Shown here: positions 4,274 through 63,368 of the stretch, in pieces | Layout of the letters: each line of letters opens with the position of its first letter | How positions within the stretch are numbered: the first letter of the stretch is position 1 | NCBI GenBank assembly: GCA_045541795.1 | Contig: JAZQJV010000018.1 | Coordinates: 118,236-182,235, forward strand | Reading direction: 5' to 3' | DNA length: 64,000 nucleotides | From: Patescibacteria group bacterium | Lineage (GTDB): Bacteria > Patescibacteriota > Microgenomatia > UBA1400 > PJMF01 | Translations under genes and position numbers: made by a program | The notes under the pieces: model-generated | Database searches by the model: none | What the model was told of the DNA's origin: nothing | What the model saw: the letters and a program-made list of their open reading frames with translations, nothing else

Positions 4274-4299
4274 CTTCCCGTCTCAAAAACTCCCCAATC

Positions 4300-4365: not shown

Positions 4366-4423
4366 TTGAAGTACGCAAATTATATCCATATAAAAACGAT
4401 ATTTTAAGCAAATTATTTGGTAT

Positions 4424-5608: not shown

Positions 5609-6736
5609 TTACCTATTTGCTTCTAGCAACTTTTTCTCTATCTCCTCTATCGTCGGCATCGTTCCTTCCACCTTTTGCGGATACAACTTCTCCAGTTCGT
5701 ACTCCGAAATTCCCAATGGTTGATTGCTAGATTCCAAAGCATACTGAGCGATTAAATTATCTTTTTGCTTGCAAATGAGCAAACCGATAGTCGGATTATC
5801 TCGTCCTTCTTTTTGTAAAAGGTGATTGCAAGAAACCACGTAACCGCCAAGTTGCCCCAAATCGGCAAAATCAAATTCGCCAATTTTCACTTCAACCACA
5901 ACGTAACAAGACAACTGTAAATTATAGAAAAGCAAATCAATAAATTTTTCTTTCTCGCCGATTTGCAGTCGATACTCTTTTCCCACATACGCGAAGCCCG
6001 TGCCAAGTTCTAATAAAAATTTGGTTATATTTTCTAGCAGGGCATCTTTTAATTTACGTTCATTGTATTTATCGGTAATACCAGTAAAAGCAAAATTATA
6101 TGGATCTTTTGTTAATTCCTGAGCTAAATCGCTAGTAACATTGGGTAAGGTTTTGCCAAAATTCGTCAATGCTTTTCCTCGTCGATCATAAAGATCGGTT
6201 TCAATAAAATTGAGTAGCATATCTCGGCTCCAACCATTTTCTATTGTTTGGTGAACAAAAAAGAGTGCTTTTTGTGGTTCTGTTTTGAATTTATCAATTA
6301 ACAGCTTATGATGGCCCCACGGAACAGAAAAAATGTCGCTTTCAATTTTCTCAATGACTTGCTGAGTAATTACATTACTTTCTATTTGCTCCCCAACTTG
6401 GGGAGCAATTTCGAAATATTGATGGTAAAGTATATAAAAGTTTTTCATGTACAACAAATTTGTCGGCGAAAAACACGTTGCGTCAGGATTGAGAGTTTTA
6501 AGGTCTCGGCTGAGATTTTTCATGAAACCACTGCTCCATTTACTTTCGGCTTTCATTACCACAATGTCTCTGCCCAAATCATAGTAAAAACGAAGCATTT
6601 CCCGATTAACTTTTACTGCTGCTCTAACTTGGCTCAAGCGATAACGAGAAGAAAGCTTCCCAATCCACGAGGCATAATTTTCATCTAGAATTGTTAGTGA
6701 CTGAACTTGTTTTGCAACCTGTTTTTTCTCTGTCAT
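5609..6736 (-). CDS. YhcG/DUF1016-family PD-(D/E)xK nuclease-like protein (copy 2)
   Basis: Clearly paralogous to 1736-2824 (RFYYDLGRDIVVMKAESKWSSGF; FIDLLFYN...CYVVVEVK). It is the first gene of the minus-strand two-gene operon. Confidence 0.65.
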   Translation of the reverse strand: MTEKKQVAKQVQSLTILDENYASWIGKLSSRYRLSQVRAAVKVNREMLRFYYDLGRDIVVMKAESKWSSGFMKNLSRDLKTLNPDATCFSPTNLLYMKNFYILYHQYFEIAPQVGEQIESNVITQQVIEKIESDIFSVPWGHHKLLIDKFKTEPQKALFFVHQTIENGWSRDMLLNFIETDLYDRRGKALTNFGKTLPNVTSDLAQELTKDPYNFAFTGITDKYNERKLKDALLENITKFLLELGTGFAYVGKEYRLQIGEKEKFIDLLFYNLQLSCYVVVEVKIGEFDFADLGQLGGYVVSCNHLLQKEGRDNPTIGLLICKQKDNLIAQYALESSNQPLGISEYELEKLYPQKVEGTMPTIEEIEKKLLEANR

Positions 6737-6834
6737 AGTGGCTATTACTTATAGCACAATAACGCTATTTTGTCAATACTGATAATTAATTATTATTGGC
6801 ATTTATTTTCAATTCTTGCAAAAACAACTTCATA

Positions 6835-6902
6835 CTGTTATAATCAGTTTCAAATAATTGGGTGCGGATTTCCCGCCAGAAACCACCCCAAAAAGATGGG
6901 AT
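6835..6902. repeat. Direct repeat copy 2: TATAAT box, 15 nt, then conserved 30-mer (6860-6887)
   Basis: Same spacing and sequence as copy 1. Here it serves as promoter and leader of the zinc-ribbon/TM2 gene. Confidence 0.7.
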
Positions 6903-8438: not shown

Positions 8439-9119
8439 ATGTCACAAAAAGATAATAGCAAACATTCTTGCAGAATAATCATGGCCGCATTGCTAGTGCT
8501 TCTAAGCATTGCATTGCTGCATAAATCTTTTTTTGCTGCCGCCTTCACTATCTGCTACGCATATCTCATCTCGCCACTATCAATTCAATTGGTAAGTAAA
8601 ATATGTAAGAAAGAAAATGAGAAATGGCTATATTCAACCATGACTTTTATTTTTGCTCTTTGCTGGATGACCACAATTCAAACTGGTCAGCCACAAATGG
8701 ATAATGTGTTAACGCAAAATAGTGAAAAAAACGCATCGCTAGAGAATGCGTCAACACAAAATAATGAAAAAATCGCTTCACTAGAAAAAGAGCTCCAATC
8801 AGTTAAGAACGAAAGAGATGAAATTCAAGCAAACAACCAAAAAAGAGCCATTTCAGCTGCCAAATCATATTTGGAATACAGTCCAATGTCGAGCCGAGAG
8901 TTGATTAAGCAACTCGAGTTAGAAGAATTTTCTCATGAAGACGCAGCATACGGTGTAGAGCATGCTGATATCAATTGGAACGATCAAGCATCACGGTCAG
9001 CAGTCCTCTTTATTGAGTTTGCTAATCCGTCAACCGAAGAATTAAAAAAACAACTTGAGTACGAAGGTTTCACAAGCAACGAAATAAAATTCGCCATTGA
9101 GCATAATAGTAATGGGTAA
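8439..9119 (+). CDS. Membrane-anchored protein with two C-terminal Ltp-type repeats (phage superinfection-exclusion lipoprotein family)
   Basis: The repeats AKSYLEYSPMSSRELIKQLELEEFSHEDAAYGV and ...STEELKKQLEYEGFTSNEIKFAIEH match the Ltp repeat pattern (YL..S...LI.QLEYEGF...A.YAV). An N-terminal TM segment and a coiled-coil repeat region are present. Confidence 0.55.
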   Translation: MSQKDNSKHSCRIIMAALLVLLSIALLHKSFFAAAFTICYAYLISPLSIQLVSKICKKENEKWLYSTMTFIFALCWMTTIQTGQPQMDNVLTQNSEKNASLENASTQNNEKIASLEKELQSVKNERDEIQANNQKRAISAAKSYLEYSPMSSRELIKQLELEEFSHEDAAYGVEHADINWNDQASRSAVLFIEFANPSTEELKKQLEYEGFTSNEIKFAIEHNSNG

Positions 9120-23956: not shown

Positions 23957-26050
23957 TTATGGCTTATTTTTGGTTTTGACCGCTGATTTGCTTTTTAGCG
24001 CAAATAGTAAACTGAGCACGCACTCCTTAATGCTTGGCCGATGATAGGCACGAGCACACACATTTTTTTTATCAAATGTCAGCCGTCGAAACGTAAAATG
24101 ACGTTCGCGTTCCAATAAAAAACGTAAAATTTTCTCGCTGGCCACTCCGGCGGCCACATATGCAGTACTGCCGAGCTGCGGCATCGCGACGCCAAAAGGA
24201 GTAATTTTTTGTCCTCGCACATACAAACCCATTTCATCACGCACGGCATTTTCTAGTCCCACCATCCGTGCTGCCACTTGCAAAAAATCACCTGAGAGCA
24301 TAGCTTGGAGTTTATCGTCACCAAGCCCAAACACCAGCGACTCACCACGCTTAGCGGCATCACTATTTTGGAAGGTAAGCTGAGCGATAGAGCCTACGTC
24401 AGATACCGCCACCACCGCCACGTTTTCTTTCCGGGCAATTTCGAGAATCGCCAATTTATCTTTGAGCGTATCTATCGCTTCTACCACTACGTCCACTTTT
24501 TGACCGGTAATGCCACCGGTCAGCCAGACAGTAAGGTTTTCTCGGTGAAAGCCATCGGCAGATAAATAAATGATTTGCGTGGGGTCTTGACGATGCAGAC
24601 GTCTGGCAAAATCCACACTTTTGGTGTCATGACTGGCGGCATCCAAAACGTCATAATTGGTGCGGTTAAAATTGGTAACATTTGGTCCTTTGGGATCACC
24701 GATACTTAGGTATCCGATCCGGCCGTCGCGGATCAAGTTTTCTGCCGTGGCGCTAGCCACACTTGCTCCGGCCACCAGTACGTGGGCCCGTGCAAAAATC
24801 AAACGAGCCTCCAGCCAAGAAATCGAGTAGGCACGGTCTTGTAGCAGCTGACCTGGGCTGGAGTTGAGTGCCAATTTCCAGGCCGGCAAAGGAGGGAATT
24901 GTACAACTGCTTCCAGTTGTCCGGTACGCGTAAAATAAAAGCCAAAAAACCCGTAATTCATTTTGTCGGTCAAATGCTCCCAAGCACTAAATTGCTCCGC
25001 TAAATATCGTGCCACCGGACCTTTGTCTGTAGAGAGGTTCTCTTTGAGTTTAGCGTAAGTACTCTCGACTAAAGTATAAAACTTGCCGCCTACATTTTCA
25101 AAAGTTTGCCCGGCAAAATTGACACTTAAATGCTGATCGCTCAGATCAAAAATCCGCGCGCTGGCTACTTCTTCCCATGACATCAAAATCGGACGTCCGG
25201 GATAAAAAGTGGCTGGATGAGCGAGTTTGTCTCGTACAAAGCTCAAATTCCATTCGTTGGTAATCAGCTCCTGCCAGATGTACTCGTCGCCAGCTGACGG
25301 CATATTAGTTGTATTTTCGCCTTGATTTTCGGTTTTATTTATACGGTCACTGCGTAAAGCAATTTCGTATGGTCTGCAGTTGTGGAAGTATCGCGGCCAA
25401 TGTGCCAGCATAAATCTCGTCTGCTCGTTGTCTGCAAGTTTGGCCTGCGCCATTTCCCGAGCCTCAATCCCGCACCGATCCATAAATGCTTTCACATTGG
25501 TGCTCATCGTGCAAGCCAACCATGATTTGGGCATATCTAAGTCTGCTGTTAAAGTCTGCACGAGACCATGTAAAATCTGGATTCTTAGCTCGTCATCATG
25601 AGTGAGGTCAAAATAAGGATGAAAGGCCAGTCGTTCAAATTCATAAGGTACTTGCCCGGTTTTTTGGTACGGCCAGCCGTCAGGCATTGTAAAAAACTGG
25701 AAGAGTTCAAGCCTCTCGTGCACTAGTCGTAGTGTCCCCAAAATTACACCTTGGCTGCAAGCAACTGCCGTTTTGATGTGGGCGTCACTGCCTGTTTCGT
25801 TAAAAGTCATGCGTTTGGGATCACTATTTGTCGCATAGCGGCCATTGTAAGCGACGCTTATAAGCGGTTGCAATAAAATGTAATCTGCGGGTTGGGCCAA
25901 ACGGTAAGAAATTCCCGCTTGCGCAAACGAGTTTTTTAAATTGCCCAAATTGCTAATTAAAGCCGCCGCATCCGCTAAAACTGCCTCGTCACTAGTGTGC
26001 TGTTTTAGCTTATTTAGATATAGTTGAGTGGTAGTTGGTGCAAAATTCAT
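23957..26050 (-). CDS. Large protein: an unknown N-terminal region of about 440 aa fused to a C-terminal E1/ThiF-like Rossmann domain with a degenerate Gly loop
   Basis: The C-terminal VLVAGASVASATAENLIRDGRIGYLSIGDPKGPNVTNFNRTNY aligns to the ThiF/MoeB pattern VLVVGAGGLGS...VD.D.V..SNLNRQ but lacks the glycines. The likely start is MNFAPTT at about 26050. Confidence 0.4.
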   Translation of the reverse strand: MNFAPTTTQLYLNKLKQHTSDEAVLADAAALISNLGNLKNSFAQAGISYRLAQPADYILLQPLISVAYNGRYATNSDPKRMTFNETGSDAHIKTAVACSQGVILGTLRLVHERLELFQFFTMPDGWPYQKTGQVPYEFERLAFHPYFDLTHDDELRIQILHGLVQTLTADLDMPKSWLACTMSTNVKAFMDRCGIEAREMAQAKLADNEQTRFMLAHWPRYFHNCRPYEIALRSDRINKTENQGENTTNMPSAGDEYIWQELITNEWNLSFVRDKLAHPATFYPGRPILMSWEEVASARIFDLSDQHLSVNFAGQTFENVGGKFYTLVESTYAKLKENLSTDKGPVARYLAEQFSAWEHLTDKMNYGFFGFYFTRTGQLEAVVQFPPLPAWKLALNSSPGQLLQDRAYSISWLEARLIFARAHVLVAGASVASATAENLIRDGRIGYLSIGDPKGPNVTNFNRTNYDVLDAASHDTKSVDFARRLHRQDPTQIIYLSADGFHRENLTVWLTGGITGQKVDVVVEAIDTLKDKLAILEIARKENVAVVAVSDVGSIAQLTFQNSDAAKRGESLVFGLGDDKLQAMLSGDFLQVAARMVGLENAVRDEMGLYVRGQKITPFGVAMPQLGSTAYVAAGVASEKILRFLLERERHFTFRRLTFDKKNVCARAYHRPSIKECVLSLLFALKSKSAVKTKNKP

Positions 26051-26126
26051 ATTTGACTTTCTGTAAAATTTGTAGTACAACATTAACAATCATAAATTAG
26101 TGATGATTATAAACGAGGAACGTTAT

Positions 26127-27791
26127 ATGTCAAGGACTAAATATGAATTTGAATTATATCAGGCTGAGCCGATGGCCGACCTGAGAGAAGTTATTAATTA
26201 TGCCGCCCAAAGTTACGCCGATAAACCGGCGTTTATTTTTCAGCAGCACCTTGAGGATGAGCCAGAAAAGATCACTTTTGCTCAGTATCGGCAAGATATT
26301 AAAGAAGTCGCCTGCGGGTTGATTAGCGCGCTCCGGATTGACGTTAGTCGTCGTGACAGCAAAAAAATCGCACTGCTTGCGCCTAATAGTTACTGGTGGT
26401 CAGTCTGCTACCTGGCCGTCACTACCATCGGTCATGTCATCGTGCCTCTAGATCCTAATTTGCCTAGTGATGATTTACTATCATTTATGAAGCGCGCGGG
26501 AGTAAGTTCGGTCATTTTCACGCCTACTATCAATGATAAAATTGCCAGCCTTAAAAATTCTTTGGTCAAAATGAAGCATTACATCGCCATGGGCGAAGCC
26601 AGTGAGGCCACAATTACACTAGAAAAAGTGCGCGCTGCCGGCATCAAGCAACTGCAAAAAAATCCGGGTCTTTATGATGAGATCACTATTTTCCCAGATA
26701 GCCTGTCGACTTTGCTTTTTACCTCTGGTACCACTTCTACACCCAAAGCAGTAATGCTCACTCACAAAAACCTCGCCTCAGAGTTGGCTGGTATGCGCCA
26801 GTTTAACGACTTCCAAAACGAACGCCTACTTTCGGTACTTCCACTTTACCACTCGTATGAGTTTATGGTAGGGTTACTTTTCCCGATCTACTGCGGCTGC
26901 ACTATTTACTATTTGCCGGGCGGCTTGCGCGCTTTCACCGATCAACTCGAGCGTGTTCGGCCGACAGTGATGGTCTTAGTACCTTTGGTGATCGAGGAAG
27001 CCTACCGCCGGGTACGAGCAAGTTTGGATGATCCCGAAGATCACGAGGCCTTGGCGGCAGCCCTAAAAAATTACTACGGCGGACAACTGACGAGAATCAT
27101 TGATGGCGGCGCGCCTATCAATAGTGACATCGCCGAGATTTACGACCGCTCCGGCATCAAGCTCCTGCAAGGCTACGGCATCACGGAATGCTCACCAGTA
27201 GTTTCCATGAATCCAGACCGCTATTACAAACCACGCAGTATCGGTATGCCGTTGCCCAATATCCGGGTGAAGATTTTTGAGCCCGATAGTGAGGGAGTGG
27301 GGGAAGTCATCGTGCGCGGGCTCACAGTCATGCTTGGCTACTATAAAGATGAGCGCAAAACTGATCAAGCCATCATTGACAATTGGTTGCACACGGGTGA
27401 TTATGGCCGCTTCGATGAAGATGGTTTTCTCTATGTGGTGGGGCGCAAAAAAAACGTTATCATCGGTAAAAACGCCAAGAAAATCTACCCGGAAGAAGTA
27501 GAATATCATCTCACCTGCTGCCCGGAAATTCGTGAGGCGATGGTTTACGGTCAGGCAGTAGATGATGATACCAAAGTCGCGGCTTTACTGGTGATTGACG
27601 AGGATAATTTCCGCCGTTACCACAGCGAACTCGGCTCTAAGCCGACACCTGAACAAATCCAAAAAGTGATGGCGGGAGTAATTGAAGCTGTCAACCAGGC
27701 GAATGTCAAATACAAGCGCATCTATAATTGGCAGATTGTCACCGCCTTACCGCGGACAGCAACAGGTAAAATAAAAAGGAATCAAGTTTGA
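26127..27791 (+). CDS. Acyl-adenylate-forming enzyme (ANL superfamily; long-chain fatty-acid CoA ligase / FAAL-like)
   Basis: Core motifs TSGTTSTPKAV, GYGITE, TGDYGRFDEDGFLYVVGRKK and a C-terminal GKIKR. An SD (acgaggaa) lies upstream. The gene is divergent from the E1-like gene across a 76-bp gap. Confidence 0.75.
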   Translation: MSRTKYEFELYQAEPMADLREVINYAAQSYADKPAFIFQQHLEDEPEKITFAQYRQDIKEVACGLISALRIDVSRRDSKKIALLAPNSYWWSVCYLAVTTIGHVIVPLDPNLPSDDLLSFMKRAGVSSVIFTPTINDKIASLKNSLVKMKHYIAMGEASEATITLEKVRAAGIKQLQKNPGLYDEITIFPDSLSTLLFTSGTTSTPKAVMLTHKNLASELAGMRQFNDFQNERLLSVLPLYHSYEFMVGLLFPIYCGCTIYYLPGGLRAFTDQLERVRPTVMVLVPLVIEEAYRRVRASLDDPEDHEALAAALKNYYGGQLTRIIDGGAPINSDIAEIYDRSGIKLLQGYGITECSPVVSMNPDRYYKPRSIGMPLPNIRVKIFEPDSEGVGEVIVRGLTVMLGYYKDERKTDQAIIDNWLHTGDYGRFDEDGFLYVVGRKKNVIIGKNAKKIYPEEVEYHLTCCPEIREAMVYGQAVDDDTKVAALLVIDEDNFRRYHSELGSKPTPEQIQKVMAGVIEAVNQANVKYKRIYNWQIVTALPRTATGKIKRNQV

Positions 27792-27847
27792 GCTTGCATT
27801 TTGCGCGCAAACGTTATATAATATTAAAAAGTTGTCTGAAAGGGGTT

Positions 27848-28243
27848 ATGTCAGATAATGCAAAAAAAATCTTACTCGTAGAAGATGAAACAGAACTGCG
27901 AGAGCTATACAAAATCCTCTTACAAGGGGAGAATTATCAGGTAGATGCTGTCGGTGACGGCAAAGCCGGACTGGAAGCAATGAGTCGCGGCGGCTATGAT
28001 TTGGTCCTTTTGGATATCATGCTGCCATTCATTGACGGACTAGATGTGCTTGAGCGCAATGCTAAATCGGATATTGCTACCAAGCAGCCCAATAAATCCG
28101 TGGTTTTGCTTACCAATTTGGCTCAAGACCAGACCATTGCCAAGGGGCTGGAGTACGGCGTGCGTGGTTACATGATCAAAAGTGACTACAACCCAGAACA
28201 GCTATTGGAAGCGGTCGCTGATTTCATCGCCAATCCGGCTTAG
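27848..28243 (+). CDS. Stand-alone response-regulator receiver (CheY-like) domain protein
   Basis: KILLVEDE, the phospho-acceptor Asp in LVLLDIMLP, and the conserved Lys in GYMIKS. No output domain. It overlaps or abuts the ANL gene, so the two are likely co-transcribed. Confidence 0.7.
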   Translation: MSDNAKKILLVEDETELRELYKILLQGENYQVDAVGDGKAGLEAMSRGGYDLVLLDIMLPFIDGLDVLERNAKSDIATKQPNKSVVLLTNLAQDQTIAKGLEYGVRGYMIKSDYNPEQLLEAVADFIANPA

Positions 28244-28250
28244 GTGCCGT

Positions 28251-28631
28251 TTACATCCCATCTACCAATGTGGGGACACTGATGCCACTAGCATCTGTGC
28301 CGAAGGCCACCGTCAGGACGAGCTGGAAAACGGCCCAGGTGCATGCCAACACTAAAATACCGATAATGGCGGCTAAAATCTGATTACGGGCGTCTTCGAC
28401 TTTACCCTTATCGCCGCCAGAAGCGATCCAGTGAATGGCGCCCATGATGAGGTGATAAAGAGTTAGTAAAGCCGCTACCATGATAGTGAGCGTAAACACG
28501 TTATGCAAAAGCGAGCCAGCACTGGGGTTGATTTTCAGACCGCCGACGCCATTGGGATCGAGATCGTTGAGATTAAAAACCCCCGCCGAAAACAGCGGAA
28601 TACTTGCCAGTTGACCGTACTTTTTATTCAT
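28251..28631 (-). CDS. TrbC/VirB2-like pilin family protein (paralog 1)
   Basis: Of 126 aa, with two hydrophobic helices separated by WIASGGDKGKVEDARNQ. Same architecture as 40090-40563 (MISGGNPSGFETAKNT). Confidence 0.45.
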   Translation of the reverse strand: MNKKYGQLASIPLFSAGVFNLNDLDPNGVGGLKINPSAGSLLHNVFTLTIMVAALLTLYHLIMGAIHWIASGGDKGKVEDARNQILAAIIGILVLACTWAVFQLVLTVAFGTDASGISVPTLVDGM

Positions 28632-47348: not shown

Positions 47349-47419
47349 ATCACTTATTATACCCTAGATTTTGCAAAATTTCCCTGCGATTACACTTATA
47401 AGTGTGGTAAAATACAACC

Positions 47420-55734: not shown

Positions 55735-56981
55735 CAGTTAATTATATCACTTATCACTGCCTTTGTGCTGCCCGATACCGGCGAGTTTTTACTTTTCGTC
55801 ATTTGGGCCACCAAGCAGACATTCATCAATACAAGCAGTCCCTCTCCGCCTACCATTGCCCACACGCCGCCCGAGATCCCCAAGCGCGGCACTAGCAAAT
55901 AATTAAGGCACAAATTAAAAACCGTCGAGCCTAACAAAAACGGTACGTAACGGGCGACCCCGTCACTGCTTTGCAGCACGGTATTTAGTGGAGCGTTAAA
56001 AAAGAACAAAATCACCACCACGCCAAACAGCCGCAAAATCTTGGCCGCTGGAGCGTATGCCTCACCCAAAAGTCCCGTCGTCAAAAAATTGGCGCCCAGC
56101 GCCATTCCTCCCGCCACCACAAAGCCCAGCCCACACATCACTGCGACCATTTTCGCAATTTGCAGCCTAGAAAGTCCTCCTTTTTTTGCCGCCAGCGGGA
56201 AAAGATTATGGAAAAGCGCCTGCGGGAGCAAGTTAAACGCATCCAAATATCGGTACGCCGCCGAATAAATTCCCAGACTGCTACTCGCCAAAAACCGGTT
56301 GATGATCAGCTGATCCGCCCGCGAGTAAATTACGCCCAAACTGTCAATTGCCGCATACGGCCAACTAGACCACCAGTTGATCCGTCCACTCTGCTTGTAA
56401 TGCTTGAGGCTGCGCCAACAAACCGTCACGGGGAAGTACCACGGTATCATGATCAGCCACGTCAGTAAATAAGCCAGATAAAACTTCCCGCTATCATCCG
56501 GTGTGCGGATAAAAAACAAACTCCCAAAAAGCAGCACGTTGCGGACAATCAGCTTGACACCCAGCATAAAACTGCGCTCATGACTCAAGTAATAAGCATC
56601 CGCCACCGTCACCAAGGCTTCAATTGCCAGACTGCCCAAAAAAAACGGCCAGACGCCAGCTTGCAGCCAGCCAAAATGCTGCTCAGCCACCATAAAAATC
56701 ACCGCCGAGCAGACCAGCAGCAGTCCCCGCCAAGCGGTCAGCCGCCCCAATAGTCCCGGCGTTTTGGCGAGGGCTGTTTGTTTGAGGTACCAGTTTTTGA
56801 CGCCCAAGTCCCCAATCGTCGTCACCAGCTGGATGAGCGTCACAAAAAGCATGATTTGTCCAAATTTTTCCGGCAAGACTGCCCGCGCAATGATCATAAA
56901 ATACACCGCCGAAAGCAGCTTGCCGCCCACCAAAAGTCCAAAATAAATGAGTGATTTTCCCAGTAGTCGGCGCAACATCAA
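55734..56981 (-). CDS. Oligosaccharide/polysaccharide flippase (Wzx-like, MOP superfamily)
   Basis: About 12 TM helices with Wzx-like topology and context. Confidence 0.55.
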   Translation of the reverse strand: MMLRRLLGKSLIYFGLLVGGKLLSAVYFMIIARAVLPEKFGQIMLFVTLIQLVTTIGDLGVKNWYLKQTALAKTPGLLGRLTAWRGLLLVCSAVIFMVAEQHFGWLQAGVWPFFLGSLAIEALVTVADAYYLSHERSFMLGVKLIVRNVLLFGSLFFIRTPDDSGKFYLAYLLTWLIMIPWYFPVTVCWRSLKHYKQSGRINWWSSWPYAAIDSLGVIYSRADQLIINRFLASSSLGIYSAAYRYLDAFNLLPQALFHNLFPLAAKKGGLSRLQIAKMVAVMCGLGFVVAGGMALGANFLTTGLLGEAYAPAAKILRLFGVVVILFFFNAPLNTVLQSSDGVARYVPFLLGSTVFNLCLNYLLVPRLGISGGVWAMVGGEGLLVLMNVCLVAQMTKSKNSPVSGSTKAVISDIIN

Positions 56982-57904
56982 GCCCTCCGGTACTCAGCCC
57001 ACAAATCCTCAGGATACACGCCGTCGGCGATCAGCTGCTTGATCGCACCCACCGTAGTCTGCTTATCGGCCGCATACGTCACGCCAAACCAGCGCTCATG
57101 AGTCGGTAACATCTGCATCTGCGCGATCCCAGCCTGGATCAAATCATTGACCACATTGGGAGTAAAAAATTCTCGGCTTTCATCGTGGCCGTACTGGGTC
57201 AAAAACGCCAGCAGCCCTTCATCTAAGTAGCTAAAAATATCCGGTGTAAAAGCGAAAAGTATCATGGATACCGGCCGATCAGGCGCGATCTCATGATCGA
57301 CGCCTTGCTTGTCTCGGCTCACGATTTTCCCGTCACACCAGCCGATCTTGGTGTGCTCGTGGATAGACGTCACCAGGCCCGCCTCATTGGTTTTTAGCAA
57401 TCCGCGCGCCACCCAACCGTTGGCAGAAAGCGTCTTGCTGATCTGGTAGCCGACGACTCCATATCGCTTGCGGCTATCCGCCGGTAAGCTGTCTATCCAC
57501 TCGGCCGCTTGGAGGAAAGCCCCCCGGCCGTAAAAATCGTCAGCGCTGATCACCGCAAACGGTTCCTGGATCGTTTTTCTGGCCGTCCAGACGGCATGAC
57601 CAGTACCCCAGGGCTTAGTCCGTCCCGGCGGAGCGCTAAAGCCCTCCGGCAAATCTGTCATTTCTTGATTTAAATATATAAGTTCTGCCTGCGCCTGTGC
57701 CCCAGTAGCGGCAAAATGCGCCTGAAAATCAGCGGCAAATTCCTGGCGGATCACAAACACCACGCGCTCAAATCCCGCCTGAAGCGCATCATACACCGAA
57801 TAATCTATCAGGTACTGTCCGCCCGGCCCCACACAGTCAATTTGCTTGAGCCCGCCATAGCGCGAACCCATCCCTGCTGCCATGATCAAAAGCGTTTTGC
57901 GCAT
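56978..57904 (-). CDS. Sugar-phosphate nucleotidyltransferase
   Basis: MRKTLLIMAAGMGSRYGGLKQ is the NTP_transferase G-x-G-x-R loop. The likely start is at 57904; the track ORF extends to 58093. Confidence 0.6.
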   Translation of the reverse strand: MRKTLLIMAAGMGSRYGGLKQIDCVGPGGQYLIDYSVYDALQAGFERVVFVIRQEFAADFQAHFAATGAQAQAELIYLNQEMTDLPEGFSAPPGRTKPWGTGHAVWTARKTIQEPFAVISADDFYGRGAFLQAAEWIDSLPADSRKRYGVVGYQISKTLSANGWVARGLLKTNEAGLVTSIHEHTKIGWCDGKIVSRDKQGVDHEIAPDRPVSMILFAFTPDIFSYLDEGLLAFLTQYGHDESREFFTPNVVNDLIQAGIAQMQMLPTHERWFGVTYAADKQTTVGAIKQLIADGVYPEDLWAEYRRA

Positions 57905-57959
57905 ATGCGTTATTATACCATACAAAAAGCTGTCTGCATCGGTAAAATTCACCCAGGCA

Positions 57960-58000
57960 AAAATTGCCTCTTGACAAATGACCCATAATGTGATATAATA
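57960..58000 (+). promoter_or_regulatory. Consensus sigma70 promoter, copy 1 (aaaattgcctcttgacaaatgacccataatgtgatataata)
   Basis: TTGACA, 17 nt, then tgaTATAAT. It matches 61687-61727 at 38 of 40 positions. It sits on the plus strand inside the minus-strand operon and is followed by a 31-codon K-rich ORF (MIEKRIKKNNYY...). Confidence 0.55.
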
Positions 58001-58049
58001 TAAGATATTATGATAGAAAAAAGAATAAAGAAAAATAATTATTATAGGT

Positions 58050-59090
58050 TTAGACAAAAACTGCCCACTGCTTGGGGTTTTGCCCGGCCACAATCTGACA
58101 GCTAATTTCCAGCGCTCCGTAAACTGGGGATTTTTCCGGGATGATGAGCACGGCTGGCAGTCCTGAGTCTGCTATCATTTTGGCAAATTCCTCCCGCCAG
58201 CAAAGCAAGAAACTCCCGCCCGCCACCAAGTCAAATTGCGTCTCCGCCAGCCCCAATTTGTAAGCCAACGCCTGCACATGAGTGAACAATTGCCCCAGAC
58301 AATAATTGACGATGTGGATGGCTACCTGGTCACCAGCTAGGGCCTGCGTACTGCATACCTTAGCCAAAGCCGCGATCTCATCTTTGCCCGGGACACGGCT
58401 ATATATGACGTCTTTAAGCTCTGCCAAATTGTCCACTTCAAAATGCCGTAAAACTGGTTTTGTCAGCGTTGTCTCCATGCCGCGCCCATCGAGTGCTCGT
58501 GCCACCGCGCGCAAAGTCAGTCTACCGGCGTCAAAGCCGCTGCCTTCGTCACTCAAAAGGTAATCCAGTCCGCCCATGCGCGACCATTGACCCTCACTGC
58601 TCACGCCGATACAATTACTGCCCGTCCCGCCGATAATTACCATTGCTGGCCGCTTGCTGGTCCCGGCTGTCAGCGCCGCCACCGCGTCATTAATGATCAC
58701 GATTTTTTTAATTGGCCACTCACGCAAGGTCTCGCCCAAAACTTGCTCTGCTCGCCGCAGATCCTGCTTGGTATCCAGCCCCGCAGTCGCGATCACCGCT
58801 AATTCTATTTCTTCATCCAGTGTCTGCTGGACAAACAACGCTGGTGGCACTTGATCGCTGTCGGTGTTTGTCGCTTCTTTTTGTAAAAGTTGACGCACGC
58901 CTTCGCGCGCATTATAGCCGGCCACGCCTACGCTTACCGCTGATACATTGACACTACCACCACTGACAATTTTTTCTATCCTGCCGCTGGCGTCTGCGAG
59001 TAAGTATTCCGATCGGCTCGCGCCGCCATCTATAGCAATGATCTTGCCGCTCACGCGCACCTTTCTTGCAGATCTGCCAGTACGATACAA
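58050..59090 (-). CDS. BadF/BadG/BcrA/BcrD-type ATPase (N-acetylglucosamine kinase-like)
   Basis: IAIDGGASRSEYLL is the N-terminal ASKHA phosphate-1 motif. Confidence 0.55.
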   Translation of the reverse strand: MYRTGRSARKVRVSGKIIAIDGGASRSEYLLADASGRIEKIVSGGSVNVSAVSVGVAGYNAREGVRQLLQKEATNTDSDQVPPALFVQQTLDEEIELAVIATAGLDTKQDLRRAEQVLGETLREWPIKKIVIINDAVAALTAGTSKRPAMVIIGGTGSNCIGVSSEGQWSRMGGLDYLLSDEGSGFDAGRLTLRAVARALDGRGMETTLTKPVLRHFEVDNLAELKDVIYSRVPGKDEIAALAKVCSTQALAGDQVAIHIVNYCLGQLFTHVQALAYKLGLAETQFDLVAGGSFLLCWREEFAKMIADSGLPAVLIIPEKSPVYGALEISCQIVAGQNPKQWAVFV

Positions 59091-60274
59091 TAGCGCCGGT
59101 AAGCCTCATACGGCGAATCATAAGCACTAAAGTAAGCGTGCACATCACCGTCAGCAAAGTATTTGGTGCACATATAATAAAAATGATCACTCGTCTGCAA
59201 ACGACGCCAGTCAGTCAGCAAACGCTCATCTTTTTTGCGCCACACCGCTTTTTCTAAGTCATAAATTTTCCGGAGGGTGTCCCATTGCAAATCATTTGAC
59301 CGCCACGCGGATAAGTCGCGGTCTTCATCTGCCCACGAGATCGGCTCATCCACATTATAAACTGGTAAAGTTTTCACCCACGCTGCCCAGTCTTTTTTGG
59401 TCCGGTATTTTTTGGGCGTCAGTTCATCGCGCGGATTGACGAAATTAATGTGCTCATCATTGCAGCCCAGCTCTACAAACTTTTCAAAAAAAGGAAAGAT
59501 ACCCGTGCTCGCCCACTGATGTTCGCCAAAAGTTTCAAAGTCCATGAAAAGATTAATAATTTCTTCATCGCGGTAGTCATGTAGCCAACGGCAATATTTG
59601 TCTGCGGTCAATGGCCACTCACTCCAGCTTTTTTGCGAAAAACGGAAAGCAATATCATCACTTAAAGGAGCATGCTTGAGCAACATCGGCAGTGCTGGGT
59701 CGCAATTTGCCCGGTAAACCTGTGTTTTTGGCCGGCCGGCCATTAGCCTGTCCACTCCTTCCACCAAAATCCCGCGGAAACCCAAATTAGCCACCTGCCA
59801 GCCGATATAATTACTGTAAATCATTTCGGTATTGCGGAAAACCACCGGTTTGACGTCAAAGAGTTCCCGCAGTAAATCCTTGTGCATTTTTACCTGACGT
59901 TTAAATTCCGTCTCTGAGTAAAGCGCTGACAAAGAGTGATAATAGTTTTCGCCCACAATTTCTACTTGACCGCGATGCTGGCTCAAGCGATAAAGCAAAT
60001 CCAAAACGTCCTGACCCCAAGCTTGACATTGCTCCAAAAATACTCCCGAGCACGAAAACGCAAATTTAAAATCCGGATATTTTTCCACTAGTTTTAAAAG
60101 TAAGCCCAGCATCGGCCGGTAGCTTTTTTCGGCCACCTTCAAAAAGACCTCATGATTTTGGTCGCGGCAATCATCACAAAAATAACGATGCCGCTCATCC
60201 CCGAGATCCGTCACCGCAAAATTTGTCAACCGGTAAGGCTGATGGAGCAAAAAATAAAAACAAACTTTCGGCAT
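59051..60274 (-). CDS. Glycoside hydrolase family 57 (alpha-glucan-active)
   Basis: N-terminal FYFLLHQPYR and the length typical of a GH57 catalytic domain. Confidence 0.5.
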   Translation of the reverse strand: MPKVCFYFLLHQPYRLTNFAVTDLGDERHRYFCDDCRDQNHEVFLKVAEKSYRPMLGLLLKLVEKYPDFKFAFSCSGVFLEQCQAWGQDVLDLLYRLSQHRGQVEIVGENYYHSLSALYSETEFKRQVKMHKDLLRELFDVKPVVFRNTEMIYSNYIGWQVANLGFRGILVEGVDRLMAGRPKTQVYRANCDPALPMLLKHAPLSDDIAFRFSQKSWSEWPLTADKYCRWLHDYRDEEIINLFMDFETFGEHQWASTGIFPFFEKFVELGCNDEHINFVNPRDELTPKKYRTKKDWAAWVKTLPVYNVDEPISWADEDRDLSAWRSNDLQWDTLRKIYDLEKAVWRKKDERLLTDWRRLQTSDHFYYMCTKYFADGDVHAYFSAYDSPYEAYRRYCIVLADLQERCA

Positions 60275-61557
60275 TAACTCGTTTTCCTTTTTTTGGTCGT
60301 CACCTTACGTTTACGGGATGTTTTTTTCTTAGCGTCACTGGCCACTTTTTGATATACTTTTTCAATTTTGGCCGCCGACTTTTTCCAGGTGTTTTGGTCT
60401 AGGTGCGCCAACTGATCGCTCACTACTTGTTCGCGGTAAGCGTGATCATTGATCAAATGTAACACTTCCGCCGCCATCGCGTCTACGTCCCAAAAATCAA
60501 ATTTCGGGCTGCCGGTCATCACTTCTACCACTCCAGAATTTTTGGAAGCAATCACCGGCGTGTGTGCCATGGCCGCCTCCGCCGCCGACAGCCCAAAAGG
60601 CTCACTTACACTCGGCATCACAAACACATCCGCTCGCCGCAAAATTGCTTGCTGCGCTCCGCCGCGCACAAATCCCGAAAACAGCAAATTGGCAGACAAA
60701 GATTTACTGGCGGTGCTCAAAAGTAAATGCTGGTACATGTCGCCCATGCCCGAAACAATAAACAAGATGTCTGGCCGCACCGTCATCAGTTTTTCGGCCA
60801 ACTGTACGAAGTAATCCGGGCCTTTTTGCATCGTCAGCCGCCCCATGAACACCACTACCGGCCGGCCGGTGGCAAATACTTTCTCGCCGCCGCTCATTTT
60901 TTGTAAGAAACGCACCACGCCGTTGTGCACTACGTCGATTTTGCAAGGATCAATCCCGTACTGCTCTACCAACACCCGTTTGGTGTAATAGCTCACGGCT
61001 AACACTCTGTCGGCCAGCCGCATTCCGGTCACCTCACACTGTCCGATATAAGTAGCTAAGTCTGCTCCACCACTGCGGTCATATTCGGTAGAATGGATAT
61101 GAGCAATGAAAGGCTTGCCGAGTTTTTGTTTGATCCGGATCGCCGCTGGCATACTCATCCAGTCGTGGGCATGCACCACATCAAACTCATCAATGTGGGC
61201 CAGGGCATAATCAAAAACTTTGGCCGCGTATTCTTCTACTCGGTCTTCCATCCATGATCCCGGGCGCGGGCAAAATTCAGTCTCAGCACTATCGGTATTT
61301 TTGCTATTGGCGTAAGCATTAAAAGGCGGGCGAGAATTTGAGTCTTCCGGCAAGAAATCAGCCCAACTACTATTATAACAGTCCACCACATCGATGTTTT
61401 CCGGCACATCCTGGGCGATGTAGGGCAGAGTAAACTTTACGCTCACACCATCAGCATGCAGCGCTTGTGCCATCTGCGCACAGGCAGTGCCCAAACCGCC
61501 ACTATTGTGTGGTGGTAACTCCCAGCCGATCATTAATACTCTTGGTTTTTCTTGCAC
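60274..61557 (-). CDS. Glycogen-synthase-like glycosyltransferase (GT4/GT5) with a Lys-rich C-terminal tail
   Basis: N-terminal WELPPHNSGGLGTA resembles the K-x-GGL nucleotide-sugar motif. GT-B fold. Confidence 0.5.
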   Translation of the reverse strand: MQEKPRVLMIGWELPPHNSGGLGTACAQMAQALHADGVSVKFTLPYIAQDVPENIDVVDCYNSSWADFLPEDSNSRPPFNAYANSKNTDSAETEFCPRPGSWMEDRVEEYAAKVFDYALAHIDEFDVVHAHDWMSMPAAIRIKQKLGKPFIAHIHSTEYDRSGGADLATYIGQCEVTGMRLADRVLAVSYYTKRVLVEQYGIDPCKIDVVHNGVVRFLQKMSGGEKVFATGRPVVVFMGRLTMQKGPDYFVQLAEKLMTVRPDILFIVSGMGDMYQHLLLSTASKSLSANLLFSGFVRGGAQQAILRRADVFVMPSVSEPFGLSAAEAAMAHTPVIASKNSGVVEVMTGSPKFDFWDVDAMAAEVLHLINDHAYREQVVSDQLAHLDQNTWKKSAAKIEKVYQKVASDAKKKTSRKRKVTTKKRKTS

Positions 61558-61686
61558 GGACTTATGTTATCACGAATTGGGATGTCCTGCAAGTAGATAT
61601 TTTATACTCATAAGGGGTCAGATTTTTATAGGTCCTAAACTTAAAATATTATAGGGTATGCAAATTTAGGCCTATAATATTAAATC

Positions 61687-61727
61687 AAAATTGACTCTTG
61701 ACAAATGACCCATAATGTGGTATAATA
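61687..61727 (+). promoter_or_regulatory. Consensus sigma70 promoter, copy 2 (aaaattgactcttgacaaatgacccataatgtggtataata)
   Basis: Near-identical to copy 1. It drives a 27-codon K-rich ORF (MKGKQVIKNSQKY...) and the gene at 61831. Confidence 0.6.
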
Positions 61728-61830
61728 GGTAATTATGAAAGGTAAACAGGTGATAAAAAACAGTCAAAAATACTCGCGAATGTGGTCGGCGTGGATTTTG
61801 GGGGTTGACAATATGTGAATTGATGGTAAA

Positions 61831-62334
61831 ATGCACACCATGGAAGAAAGATATACACCCATCATTACAATTAGCGTCGTGATTGCAGCTTTGTTTGCGA
61901 CTTTGGTCTTTGTCCGGCTACATCGTACCCCGCTCGCCACCCCAGAGACATATAATGAAGTTTCACCCAGTGCTGAGCTGGCATTAGATTTTAATGCTCA
62001 CCGTCATTATATCTTTAGTCGTGACGACTGCATCCACTGTCAAAACCTAGAAAGCTACCTTGATAGTCATGAAGGCAGCCGTTCTCGTCTCGACATCGAG
62101 ATAGCCAATCTCTCTCAAACGGCCACTGCCAACTACTTCTATAATAAAGCCGTGGAATTTAGTGAAGTTTGCGGCCAGGATTCCAGCCAGTTGGGTACAC
62201 CGTTCCTCTATATCAATGATGAGAGTGTGCCCATGAGTGAACGTTGCATCGCTGGCGATACGCCGATCATGGCTTACTTTGACGGTTTGCTCGCGCCAGA
62301 GACAGCCAGTATGCCTGCTGCCGATAATCAATGA
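61831..62334 (+). CDS. Membrane-anchored thioredoxin/glutaredoxin-fold protein
   Basis: N-terminal TM. CIHC (CxxC) and a downstream GTPFLYIND resemble the glutaredoxin fold. Confidence 0.35.
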   Translation: MHTMEERYTPIITISVVIAALFATLVFVRLHRTPLATPETYNEVSPSAELALDFNAHRHYIFSRDDCIHCQNLESYLDSHEGSRSRLDIEIANLSQTATANYFYNKAVEFSEVCGQDSSQLGTPFLYINDESVPMSERCIAGDTPIMAYFDGLLAPETASMPAADNQ

Positions 62335-62381: not shown

Positions 62382-63368
62382 GTGAAAAAAGTGATCTGGG
62401 CAGCATTGATTTTAGGTTTGGTCGTAGTTTTTGGCGGATTCTTTGGTCTGGTGTGGTATGTGCAAGCTCTATTTGCTCCCATCAATCCTGCCGACCAGAC
62501 AGAAATTCACTATGTGGTGGCAAAGGGTAGCTCACTGGGGGCGGTGGCCGCTGATCTGGAAGCTCAAGGCATTGTCAAGAGTGCGGAAGGCTTGCGGCTT
62601 TATGCCCGGATTTTCCATGTGGGCGATAGCGTCCAGGCTGGAGAGCATATCTTGCATCGCAGTGATGATGCCGCCGGGATTATCTCGAGCCTAGAAATGC
62701 CACCCGCTCAGGTGACGTTTACCATTTTGCCCGGGTGGCGGCGTGAAGAAATCGCTGCTTATCTGAGCACTGCTGGTTTGAGCGAATTTGATGACAAGCA
62801 GTTTTTGGCGCTCACTGCCGATCTGGAAGGTCAGCTCATGCCCGAAACCTACAAAATTGCTCCCTTGAGTGATACAGCGACCATCGTGGATGTGCTCCAT
62901 GGACAATTTGTACACGACATCCTAGAAAACCCCGAGCTGCAGCCACAGTTTGCCGCCTCCAGCTATAGTCAAAATGAAATCATTACTCTCGCCTCCTTGC
63001 TCCAGCGCGAGGGCAAATCTCTATCCGAAATGAAAATGATCGCCGGGATCTTGTATTCCCGTCTGGAAGACCATTATCCGCTTCAGCTGTGCGCTAGTGC
63101 GCAATACGCCACGGGTCAAGACAGTGAGAGTGGCAAATGGTGGGAACCGCCCACCCTGGCCGATACTCAGTTTGACTCACCATACAATACTTACGTCAAC
63201 AAGGGGCTGCCACCAGGGCCGATCAGTACTGTCAGCGTGGATGCCGTGCGCGCCGCTCTGGATCCCACGCCGAGTGACTATTATTACTATTTACATGATA
63301 GTGATGGGCAGATTCACTATGCCACCACGCTTGATGGTCACGAACGTAATAAAAGTTTATATTTATAG
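62382..63368 (+). CDS. mltG: Endolytic murein transglycosylase MltG (YceG family)
   Basis: N-terminal TM and YceG-like motifs (GLPPGPIST...). Confidence 0.7.
   Translation: MKKVIWAALILGLVVVFGGFFGLVWYVQALFAPINPADQTEIHYVVAKGSSLGAVAADLEAQGIVKSAEGLRLYARIFHVGDSVQAGEHILHRSDDAAGIISSLEMPPAQVTFTILPGWRREEIAAYLSTAGLSEFDDKQFLALTADLEGQLMPETYKIAPLSDTATIVDVLHGQFVHDILENPELQPQFAASSYSQNEIITLASLLQREGKSLSEMKMIAGILYSRLEDHYPLQLCASAQYATGQDSESGKWWEPPTLADTQFDSPYNTYVNKGLPPGPISTVSVDAVRAALDPTPSDYYYYLHDSDGQIHYATTLDGHERNKSLYL

What the first reader, a model, noticed from the sequence alone, without database searches (positions are those of the whole stretch)
57960..61727. Near-identical 40-bp consensus promoter duplicated on both sides of the alpha-glucan gene cluster, each followed by a K-rich micro-ORF
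aaaattg(c/a)ctcTTGACAaatgacccataatgtg(a/g)TATAATa occurs at 57960-58000 and at 61687-61727, matching at 38 of 40 positions, both on the plus strand. Copy 2 drives the gene at 61831. Copy 1 sits inside the minus-strand operon between the BadF kinase and nucleotidyltransferase genes and would fire antisense into the kinase/GH57/GT genes.
Each copy is followed within about 10 nt by a small Lys-rich ORF (MIEKRIKKNNYY..., 31 aa; MKGKQVIKNSQKY..., 27 aa). This could be a regulatory duplication (antisense control), a recombination footprint flanking the 3.7-kb cluster, or a family of leaderless micro-proteins.
Basis: seen in the sequence. Interest (0 to 1): 0.55.

Follow-up and report, generated by a model that had tools for sequence, protein, structure and literature searches.

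The report
Duplicated strong promoter, one copy orphaned
Two nearly identical copies of a very strong, clade-typical bacterial promoter flank a sugar-polymer gene cluster in a Patescibacteria genome. One is the conserved promoter of the neighbouring operon and the other is a recently copied orphan pointing backwards into the cluster. The small Lys-rich ORFs behind them are not conserved genes.

Summary
The repeat is real. Positions 57960-58000 and 61687-61727 (+) are 39/41 identical, with sharp edges and no other copy in the window. Each copy is a perfect TTGACA-17-TGnTATAAT promoter.

It is not a private pair. The same module (AAATTGCCTC-TTGACAAA..CC.ATAAT.TG.TATAATA) occurs 1-3 times per roughly 17-kb locus in relatives L003, L004 and L008, and once in the 3.9-kb contig L018, upstream of unrelated genes.

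- **Copy 2** is the orthologous distal promoter (P1) of the membrane CxxC protein/YceG operon. It lies about 105 nt upstream of a second, leaderless promoter (P2).
- **Copy 1** has no plus-strand gene to drive. It sits back-to-back with the nucleotidyltransferase's own leaderless promoter, at a gene-order junction seen only in this lineage, and points into the 3' end of the BadF gene. Its 29-nt core carries all four derived substitutions of copy 2, so it was copied or gene-converted recently.
- **Micro-ORFs** are not conserved. The ORF after P1 is 27, 5, 2 and 1 codons in four genomes, and micro-ORF 1 has no homologues.
- **Downstream RNA** shows no structure and no terminator.

Antisense or insulating activity of copy 1 is plausible but untested. 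This is an ordinary case of promoter propagation, with a modestly interesting orphan copy.

The parts
57960..58000 (+). Copy 1 of the promoter module. UP-like AAAATTGCCTC 57960-57970, -35 TTGACA 57971-57976, 17-nt spacer, TGTG 57989-57992, -10 TATAAT 57994-57999. It is orphaned: it points into the 3' end of the BadF gene.
   Evidence: The core is identical in strain L002.
61687..61727 (+). Copy 2 of the module, the conserved distal promoter P1 of the CxxC-protein/YceG operon. -35 at 61698-61703, -10 at 61721-61726.
   Evidence: Orthologous copies lie at the same site in L003, L008 and L018.
61805..61832 (+). P2: TTGACA-16-TAAAAT with a TG extension, 7 nt before ATG 61840. It is the leaderless proximal promoter of the same operon.
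   Evidence: Equivalent P2 promoters occur in L003, L008 and L018.
61840..62334 (+). Hypothetical 164-aa protein with an N-terminal hydrophobic segment and a CIHC motif; no Pfam family. First gene downstream of P1/P2, followed by YceG at 62382-63368.
   Evidence: P0244, 164 aa, 100% identical.
57912..57920 (-). Extended -10 promoter (TGGTATAAT) of the nucleotidyltransferase, 7 nt before its ATG at 57904. It lies back-to-back with copy 1.
   Evidence: The start agrees with P0121, 308 aa.
56978..57904 (-). NTP_transferase gene, first gene of the unit NTP-transferase / flippase-like / DUF4153.
58050..59054 (-). BadF/BcrAD-type ATPase (kinase-like) gene, last gene of the GT-GH57-BadF unit. Its 3' end faces copy 1.
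   Evidence: (the L002 gene call gives the GTG start).
59051..60274 (-). GH57 glycoside hydrolase gene.
60274..61557 (-). GT4/GT5 (starch-synthase-like) glycosyltransferase gene, first gene of the unit, divergent from copy 2.
58010..58105 (+). Micro-ORF 1 (31 codons). It overlaps the BadF 3' end and is judged non-coding.
   Evidence: Both L002 changes within it (58039, 58053) alter the encoded residue, and the change that lies in the BadF overlap is silent in BadF.
61735..61818 (+). Micro-ORF 2 (27 codons). Judged non-coding. Only its ATG, 7-8 nt after the -10, is conserved in relatives.

Best explanation
Both copies belong to a lineage-specific family of maximal-strength housekeeping (sigma-70/sigma-A type) promoters in a Patescibacteria genome. 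Each carries an UP-like AAATTGCC element with a C-rich end, consensus -35, an optimal 17-bp spacer of AT/GC/AT/TRTG pattern, and consensus -10. Copy 2 is the orthologously conserved distal promoter P1 of the CxxC membrane protein/YceG operon, about 105 nt upstream of a leaderless proximal promoter P2. Copy 1 is a paralogue whose 29-nt core was copied from, or gene-converted by, copy 2 (or an unseen sibling copy) after this lineage split from its nearest sampled relative. It lies at a lineage-specific junction between the GT-GH57-BadF unit and the nucleotidyltransferase unit, back-to-back with the latter's own promoter, and has no plus-strand gene. It is therefore an orphan promoter whose only predicted product is an unstructured transcript antisense to BadF. 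Inferred, not shown: that it fires, and that convergent transcription lowers BadF expression or blocks read-through from BadF into the nucleotidyltransferase unit. The Lys-rich micro-ORFs are by-products of A-rich initially transcribed sequence.
For: Repeat and promoter quality.

Family membership: the same module lies upstream of unrelated genes in relatives. These are L003 P1, L018 P1, L008 P1, L008 at 2314 (before an array of small genes), L008 at 12127 (before alaS), and L004 at 4166 (before further promoters and a tRNA).

Orthology of copy 2: the order GT | P1 | P2 | CxxC protein | YceG is the same in L003, L008 and L018.

Recent copying: the core TTGACAAAAAGCCTATAATGTGGTATAAT is identical in L008 P1, L008 2314 and L018 P1, which I take as the ancestral state. 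Window copy 2 differs from it at 4 positions (A3T, A4G, G5A, T8C of the spacer) and shares two of them with its sister L003. Copy 1 carries all four.

Mosaic flanks: the upstream CCAGGCnAAATTGCCTC of copy 1 matches L008 2314 and L008 alaS. Copy 2 has the TCAAAATTG flank of the P1 type.

Junction is lineage-specific but real. In L015, NTP-transferase plus flippase follow an AAA ATPase. In L008 and L016, BadF is followed by a convergent alaS. The independent 97%-identical contig L002 has the same BadF/copy 1/NTP-transferase junction, so it is not an assembly artefact.

No plus-strand gene, no Rfam family, no stable fold and no convincing terminator downstream.

General knowledge on spacer pattern and TRTG: PMC12641261. 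On promoter reuse: PMC3488235.
Against: There are no expression data, so activity of either copy is only predicted from consensus. The rest of the genome could not be retrieved: an NCBI contig of 288,690 nt that carries 100%-identical proteins, probably the source, is not readable with these tools. The donor of copy 1 and the total copy number are therefore unknown. The strict conservation of the spacer across diverged genomes (0 mismatches between L008 and L018) suggests something reads the spacer, such as a regulator, which a plain strong-promoter model does not require. L002 shows 0 SNPs in 57970-58038 against 6 in the rest of the 145-nt spacer. This hints at constraint on the orphan, although P is only about 0.06. 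Only four related genomes carry the family, so the ancestral-state inference rests on few sequences.
Confidence: 0.6

Rival explanations
1. Copy 1 is a selected cis-antisense or insulator promoter. Strong convergent transcription from 58005 into BadF tunes the alpha-glucan unit and prevents read-through into the nucleotidyltransferase/flippase unit, which is then driven only by its own leaderless promoter.
For: It is a perfect consensus promoter facing the 3' end of BadF, with no terminator detected between BadF and the next gene on the minus strand. The core and the first 38 transcribed nt carry no SNP between two strains that differ at 3% overall and at 6 sites in the rest of the spacer. L004 also has a family copy pointing toward the 3' end of a minus-strand gene, but there it precedes plus-strand RNA genes.
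Against: The arrangement is seen in only one lineage (window and L002), so there is no comparative support. Relatives manage the same GT-GH57-BadF unit without it. The SNP deficit is marginal. No transcript data exist.
Confidence: 0.2
2. The two copies share a binding site for one regulator within the spacer or UP region, so the duplication co-regulates the CxxC/YceG operon with whatever copy 1 controls. The genome-specific spacer reflects co-evolution with that protein.
For: The spacer is unusually conserved: 29/29 identity between L008 and L018 despite strongly diverged proteins. Both window copies changed together. An inverted repeat AGGC-N6-7-GCCT lies just upstream of the -35 in copy 1, L008 2314 and L008 alaS.
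Against: The spacer motif AATGACCCATAATG occurs nowhere else in the window, not even at 3 mismatches above chance. The spacer follows the generic strong-spacer pattern of AT tract, GC patch, AT tract, TRTG (PMC12641261). Near-identical cores also turn up in apparently unrelated contigs (L001, L006/L007), as expected from convergence on an optimum. No candidate regulator is linked to the sites.
Confidence: 0.1
3. The 41-bp direct repeats are the footprint of insertion (or a substrate for excision) of the 3.7-kb GT-GH57-BadF cluster, in the manner of attL/attR or Campbell-type integration.
For: The repeats are direct and flank exactly the three-gene unit, 3727 bp apart. Copy 1 lies at a synteny break.
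Against: GT-GH57(-BadF) is adjacent to P1/CxxC protein/YceG in L003, L008 and L018 with only one promoter copy at that border. The cluster is therefore ancestral there, and only the far junction is new. There is no integrase or transposase, no target-site duplication and no terminal inverted repeats. GC content across the cluster is unremarkable.
Confidence: 0.05
4. The promoters drive leaderless, Lys-rich micro-proteins of 31 and 27 aa.
For: This genome uses leaderless starts heavily, so an ATG close to the -10 could be translated. An ATG 7-8 nt after the -10 is kept in all four P1 orthologues.
Against: The ORF length behind P1 is 27, 5, 2 and 1 codons in four genomes. The two peptides are unrelated to each other. 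Micro-ORF 1 has no homologue: the single hit is a tandem-repeat artefact. Neither has a Pfam match. Real leaderless genes here have 6-7 nt between the -10 and the ATG, against 10 and 8 nt for the micro-ORFs. The L002 changes in micro-ORF 1 are both non-synonymous.
Confidence: 0.05

Closest known systems
Putative mobile promoters / promoter propagation (Matus-Garcia, Nijveen and van Passel 2012, PMC3488235)
   Same: A highly similar promoter sequence is found within one genome next to non-homologous upstream and downstream genes. The family is also shared between related genomes. No IS or MITE features are attached.
   Different: The shared block is 41 nt, below that study's alignment threshold of at least 50 nt. 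One copy has no downstream CDS at all. Here the direction and recency of copying can be inferred from derived spacer substitutions.
Consensus extended -10 (TRTG) sigma-A/sigma-70 promoters with a proximal UP element
   Same: TTGACA, 17-bp spacer, TGTGnTATAAT, an A/T tract with a C-rich 3' end upstream of the -35, and a spacer built as AT tract / GC patch / AT tract / G-rich Ex region (pattern described in PMC12641261).
   Different: The upstream element is a specific octamer, AAATTGCC. It is over-represented in this genome (19 observed against 5.6 expected) and sits 31-33 nt before the -10 in several other promoters. Activity has not been measured in any Patescibacterium for this sequence.
Tandem P1-P2 promoters such as E. 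coli rrn P1/P2 (from my own knowledge, not tested here)
   Same: A very strong distal promoter with an UP element lies roughly 100-120 bp upstream of a second promoter for the same operon. The spacing is conserved while the intervening sequence is not.
   Different: The operon is not rRNA. P2 produces a leaderless mRNA, whereas P1 would produce a leader of about 107 nt that begins with a short, non-conserved ORF.
Convergent-promoter / cis-antisense transcriptional interference (from my own knowledge, not tested here)
   Same: A strong promoter faces the 3' end of an operon on the other strand, with no gene of its own.
   Different: There is no transcript evidence and no conservation outside one lineage, so only the geometry is shared.

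Membership tests
Sigma-70/sigma-A extended -10 promoter | -35 hexamer close to TTGACA | tested here: met
   6/6 in both copies.
Sigma-70/sigma-A extended -10 promoter | -10 hexamer close to TATAAT with a 16-18 bp spacer | tested here: met
   6/6 with a 17-bp spacer in both copies.
Sigma-70/sigma-A extended -10 promoter | TG (TRTG) motif one base upstream of the -10 | tested here: met
   TGTGA / TGTGG before TATAAT.
Sigma-70/sigma-A extended -10 promoter | Transcription actually initiates 6-8 nt downstream of the -10 | not testable with these tools
   No transcript data. Indirect support only: 13 of 15 TGnTAnnAT elements that precede long ORFs in the window sit 6-7 nt before the ATG, so such elements are used as promoters here.
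Putative mobile promoter (PMC3488235) | Two promoter regions of one genome align over at least 50 nt at 80% identity or more | tested here: not met
   The local alignment is 41 nt at 95%. The flanks are not significantly similar. An ungapped 50-nt frame would give about 40/50 by my own count, but the alignment does not extend.
Putative mobile promoter (PMC3488235) | Upstream and downstream coding sequences of the two copies are not homologous | tested here: met
   Copy 1 lies between NTP_transferase and BadF. Copy 2 lies between GT4/5 and the CxxC protein.
Putative mobile promoter (PMC3488235) | Each copy lies within about 150 nt upstream of the start of a transcription unit | tested here: not met
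   Copy 2 does (the ATG at 61840 is 113 nt after its -10). Copy 1 has no plus-strand CDS downstream.
MITE / IS-derived outward promoter | Terminal inverted repeats and a target-site duplication, or a transposase nearby | tested here: not met
   The ends AAAATTG... and ...TATAATA are not inverted repeats. The flanking bases differ between copies. No transposase domain was found in the neighbours.
att-type direct repeats of an integrated island | The island is absent from the site in relatives, and an integrase or tRNA lies at one border | tested here: not met
   The cluster is present at the same border in L003, L008 and L018. There is no integrase and no tRNA here.
Leaderless small protein gene | The ORF is conserved in length and sequence in relatives | tested here: not met
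   27, 5, 2 and 1 codons. No homologues.
Known structured sRNA or riboswitch | Match to a curated RNA family, or a fold more stable than shuffles | tested here: not met
   Rfam found nothing at gathering score and only noise at E up to 10. Fold z-scores were +1.56 and +0.06.
cis-antisense RNA / transcriptional interference | An antisense transcript is detected and sense expression depends on it | not testable with these tools
   Only the geometry is shown.

The most novel reading that the evidence does not exclude
In this Patescibacteria subclade a complete promoter module, about 41-45 nt from the UP-like element to the -10, behaves as a unit. It is kept nearly invariant across species, spacer included, and is copied or gene-converted between loci within a genome. 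This leaves orphan copies at rearrangement junctions. The orphan between BadF and the nucleotidyltransferase would be retained because its convergent transcription insulates two newly adjacent sugar-metabolism units. It would be an example of regulatory rewiring by promoter copy-paste in a minimal genome with few transcription factors.
Probability: 0.2. Interest if true: 0.5.

Novelty: new member of a known kind. Interest (0 to 1): 0.3.

Why it matters
Promoter architecture and regulation in Patescibacteria are almost unstudied. This locus gives a concrete, testable strong-promoter module: AAATTGCC element, consensus -35, TRTG -10. It also shows that leaderless starts 6-7 nt after the -10 are the norm in this genome. 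Finally, it offers a datable case of a promoter core being copied between loci. If the orphan copy is active, it would be a simple natural example of convergent-promoter insulation created by genome rearrangement. If it is not, it is a neutral relic. Either way the micro-ORFs should not be annotated as genes.

Tried and rejected
1. Retrieving the source genome to count further copies. Exact look-ups of window proteins found no readable contig. Proteins 100% identical to the window's are on record from an NCBI contig of 288,690 nt, probably the source, but it cannot be read.

2. Exact 22-mer scan of 185,579 species genomes. There was one hit, L001, which matches copy 1 over 31 nt with unrelated flanks. 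It is a low-GC MAG labelled Gammaproteobacteria whose genes look Patescibacteria-like to me. I judge it a probable convergence on an optimal spacer, but it is unexplained.

3. Degenerate 25-base scan of metagenome contigs. Only L006 and L007 matched, and their surrounding sequence bears no resemblance to the window's. A scan of viral contigs found nothing.

4. Known RNA downstream. Rfam found nothing at gathering score and only noise at a permissive threshold. Folding gave no stable structure or terminator.

5. Extending the repeat with gaps (ATTATGA.AG after both copies). Not significant: 583 of 2000 shuffles scored as well.

6. Idea that copy 1 is the orphaned alaS promoter. In L008 and L016 alaS is convergent with BadF, and the L008 alaS promoter has the same CCAGGC flank. 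Flank homology is only marginal (75 of 2000 shuffles). The 61 nt after BadF in L003 are neither an AlaS C-terminus nor significantly similar to the window spacer (194 of 1000 shuffles). I keep this as speculation only.

7. Within-genome concerted evolution in L008. Its P1 and 2314 copies are identical, but L018 P1 has the same core, so retention of the ancestral sequence explains it. Only the window pair needs copying.

8. More distant relatives (L011-L014, L016, L017, at 66-69% GH57 identity) have the GT-GH57-BadF triad but no family member within 7 mismatches.

9. Plus-strand ORFs antisense to the cluster have no Pfam match.

Full report
**Observation.**
The window carries AAAATTGCCTCTTGACAAATGACCCATAATGTGATATAATA at 57960-58000 and AAAATTGACTCTTGACAAATGACCCATAATGTGGTATAATA at 61687-61727, both on the plus strand. 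They match at 39 of 41 positions. A search allowing 3 mismatches finds only these two in 64 kb, and no shuffle gives any match. The repeat finder reports the same 41-nt family, 3727 bp apart. Both score 12/12 as TTGACA-17-TATAAT with a TG extension. Other consensus promoters in the window (near 29, 15818, 28684, 40058 and 61805) share at most 28/41 positions, so the identical spacer is not a by-product of promoter consensus. Alignment tests show no significant similarity outside the 41 nt.

**Gene context.**
Pfam confirms the neighbours on the minus strand: NTP_transferase (56978-57904), BadF/BcrAD (58050-59054), GH57 (59051-60274) and a GT4/GT5 glycosyltransferase (60274-61557). On the plus strand lie a 164-aa protein without a Pfam family (61840-62334, with a hydrophobic N-terminus and a CIHC motif) and YceG (62382-63368).
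- GH57 homologues carry source names such as Pacebacteria and Patescibacteria group, so the organism is a member of the candidate phyla radiation.
- GT, GH57 and BadF overlap or abut, and form one unit.
- The nucleotidyltransferase is separated from BadF by 145 nt. It has its own extended -10 promoter (TGGTATAAT) exactly 7 nt before its ATG.
- That geometry is the rule in this genome. Of 15 TGnTAnnAT elements that precede long ORFs within 5-10 nt, 13 have a 6-7 nt gap, which implies widespread leaderless mRNAs.
- The starts at 57904 and 61840 match the lengths of 100%-identical proteins held from an NCBI contig of 288,690 nt (308 and 164 aa).
- Copy 1 therefore lies between two transcription units, back-to-back with the nucleotidyltransferase promoter, not inside an operon.

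**Copy 2 is a conserved, orthologous promoter.**
Three related contigs keep the order GT | promoter | CxxC protein | YceG: L003 (GH57 85% identical), L018 (CxxC protein 73%) and L008 (GH57 72%). All three keep the same module at the same place. In all four genomes a second promoter lies about 105 nt downstream, with its -10 placed 6-7 nt before the ATG of the CxxC protein gene. In the window this is TTGACA-16-TAAAAT at 61805-61832. Copy 2 is thus the distal promoter P1 of a tandem P1/P2 pair.

**The module is a family.**
Scanning all fetched loci for the 29-nt core at up to 7 mismatches finds further copies before unrelated genes:
- L008 at 2314, between uvrC and an array of small genes.
- L008 at 12127, before alaS.
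- L004 at 4166, divergent from ybeY and followed by two more plus-strand promoters and a tRNA.

The conserved block runs from AAATTGCCTC through TATAATA. More distant relatives at 66-69% GH57 identity have the GT-GH57-BadF triad but no family member. Part of the block is a general feature of this genome. AAATTGCC occurs 19 times against 5.6 expected, and no shuffle reaches 19. It sits 31-33 nt before the -10 of at least six promoters. The spacer follows the widely conserved pattern of AT tract, GC patch, AT tract and G-rich TRTG region described in PMC12641261.

**Copy 1 is a recent copy.**
The 29-nt core is identical in L008 P1, L008 2314 and L018 P1 (TTGACAAAAAGCCTATAATGTGGTATAAT), which I take as the ancestral state.
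- L003 P1 and window copy 2 each differ from it at four positions. They share two of these (spacer positions 3 and 8), as expected for sister lineages. The AG-to-GA change at positions 4-5 is specific to the window.
- Copy 1 carries all four derived states of copy 2. Four parallel substitutions in an independent old paralogue are very unlikely. The core of copy 1 was therefore copied from copy 2, or from an unseen sibling, after the split from the L003 lineage.
- The upstream flank of copy 1 (CCAGGCnAAATTGCCTC) matches L008 2314 and L008 alaS, not copy 2, whose flank TCAAAATTG is the P1 type.
- This mosaic fits gene conversion of an older family member, or descent from a third copy outside the window. 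I cannot distinguish these.

**Copy 1 sits at a lineage-specific junction.**
The triad GT-GH57-BadF is conserved, but what follows BadF is not:
- A convergent alaS in L008 and L016.
- Other genes in L011, L014 and L017.
- In L015, which comes from the same sample as L003, the nucleotidyltransferase and flippase follow an AAA ATPase and isoprenoid genes. They lie a few kb from homologues of window 24.9-28.6 kb.

The junction is nevertheless real. An independently assembled contig from a 97.0%-identical strain (L002) has the same BadF/copy 1/nucleotidyltransferase order. Between the two strains the 145-nt spacer carries 6 SNPs, none of them in 57970-58038. That is a weak hint of constraint: about 2.8 are expected there, so P is about 0.06 by my own estimate.

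**What the copies do not encode.**
- The micro-ORFs translate as reported.
- Behind the orthologous P1 an ATG is kept 7-8 nt after the -10, but the ORF is 27 codons in the window, 5 in L003 (MKGIN), 2 in L018 and 1 in L008.
- Micro-ORF 1 has one hit among 1.84 billion representative proteins. That hit is a 642-aa tandem-repeat ORF matching through a repeated short motif, not a homologue.
- Neither micro-ORF nor any plus-strand ORF antisense to the cluster has a Pfam match.
- Rfam finds nothing at either site.
- The predicted transcripts are no more stable than shuffles, with z-scores of +1.56 and +0.06. Terminator-like hairpins are weak and no more frequent than in shuffles.

**Mechanism.**
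Shown:
- There are two copies of a maximal-consensus promoter module.
- One is orthologous and paired with P2.
- One is recently copied, orphaned, and antisense-facing at a new junction.

Inferred:
- Both fire.
- Copy 1 yields an unstructured antisense transcript into BadF. This could reduce BadF expression or stop read-through into the nucleotidyltransferase unit. It may equally be a neutral relic.

I put 0.6 on the orphan-copy-of-a-promoter-family account. On the rivals I put 0.2 on selected antisense or insulator function, 0.1 on a shared regulator site, and 0.05 each on an insertion footprint and on micro-proteins.

**Comparison with known systems.**
The closest concept is promoter propagation, or putative mobile promoters (PMC3488235). 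The non-homologous neighbours fit. The 41-nt block misses that study's 50-nt threshold, and copy 1 lacks a downstream gene. There are no MITE, IS or att features.

**Verdict.**
This is a new example of a known kind of event. It is of modest interest in itself, and somewhat more so as a handle on promoter architecture in Patescibacteria.

Noticed in passing
window, e.g. 55734(-), 20390(+), 15724(-), 57904(-), 47420(+), 10165(-), 33513(+), 61840(+), 10270(+), 50371(+), 15852(+), 31390(+): Many long ORFs start 6-7 nt after an extended -10 element (TGnTAnnAT). This implies that leaderless mRNAs are the dominant gene-start architecture in this genome.
   Followed up: partly
window, 19 sites, e.g. 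20346, 31346, 50328, 57961; variants at 47376 and 61688: The octamer AAATTGCC is over-represented (19 observed, 5.6 expected, 0 of 100 shuffles reach 19). It sits 31-33 nt upstream of the -10 in at least six promoters. It is a candidate clade-specific UP-like promoter element.
   Followed up: partly
window 61624-61656; L018 2484-2515; L003 about 4355-4390; L004 about 8650-8685: The block TTTTTATAGGTCCTAAACTTAAAATATTATAGG, with TTATAGG occurring twice, lies upstream of the GT-GH57-BadF unit. It is nearly invariant across relatives, while the surrounding spacer diverges. It is a likely promoter or regulator site of the alpha-glucan unit.
   Followed up: no
L001 1412-1442 (-) and downstream to about 1345: A low-GC MAG labelled Gammaproteobacteria, whose genes look Patescibacteria-like to me, carries a 31-nt stretch identical to copy 1 (CTTGACAAATGACCCATAATGTGATATAATA) with unrelated flanks. 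It is followed by a roughly 65-nt stretch ending in a hairpin plus T-run, then small membrane ORFs. This may be chance convergence on an optimal spacer or transfer; it is unresolved.
   Followed up: partly
L004 4166-4525: Three plus-strand promoters lie in tandem: the family copy, then TTGCGA-17-TATAAT, then TGGTATAAT. They precede a tRNA at 4452-4525. Between the second and third lies a roughly 110-nt hairpin-rich stretch that matches no Rfam family and could be an unannotated small RNA.
   Followed up: no
P1 orthologues: window 61735, L003 about 4277, L018 about 2595, L008 about 6590: An ATG is conserved 7-8 nt after the -10 of P1 in four genomes, although the ORF behind it is 27, 5, 2 or 1 codons. 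It could be a 5'-terminal start-stop-like mini-ORF on the P1 leader, or simply a constraint on the initially transcribed sequence.
   Followed up: partly
window 58050-59054 compared with relatives: BadF diverges much faster than its operon partners. It is 47% identical to L003, against 80% for GT and 85% for GH57. It is 38-50% identical among all relatives compared.
   Followed up: partly
L008 147-2314 (-): An array of small hypothetical genes (100-140 aa) is present. At least three of them are preceded by their own consensus promoter and a conserved 5' leader, GTTCTYTAAAATCCAGTT..AAGGAGG.
   Followed up: no
window 4284-4358 and 6819-6893: A 75-nt direct repeat (79% identical, 2535 bp apart) brackets two minus-strand genes (4424-5602 and 5609-6736). 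The repeat contains a -10-like TGYTATAAT and a segment GGGTKCGGATTTCCCGCCAGAAACCACC that looks to me like a tRNA 3' end. It may mark the borders of a small inserted island.
   Followed up: no
window 24866-28595 and 55809-57925 compared with L015: Blocks that are about 6 kb apart and co-oriented in the relative L015 are about 29 kb apart and inverted in the window. The isoprenoid (ispH/F/E/G) genes that lie between them in L015 are absent from the window. This indicates large rearrangements between these lineages.
   Followed up: partly
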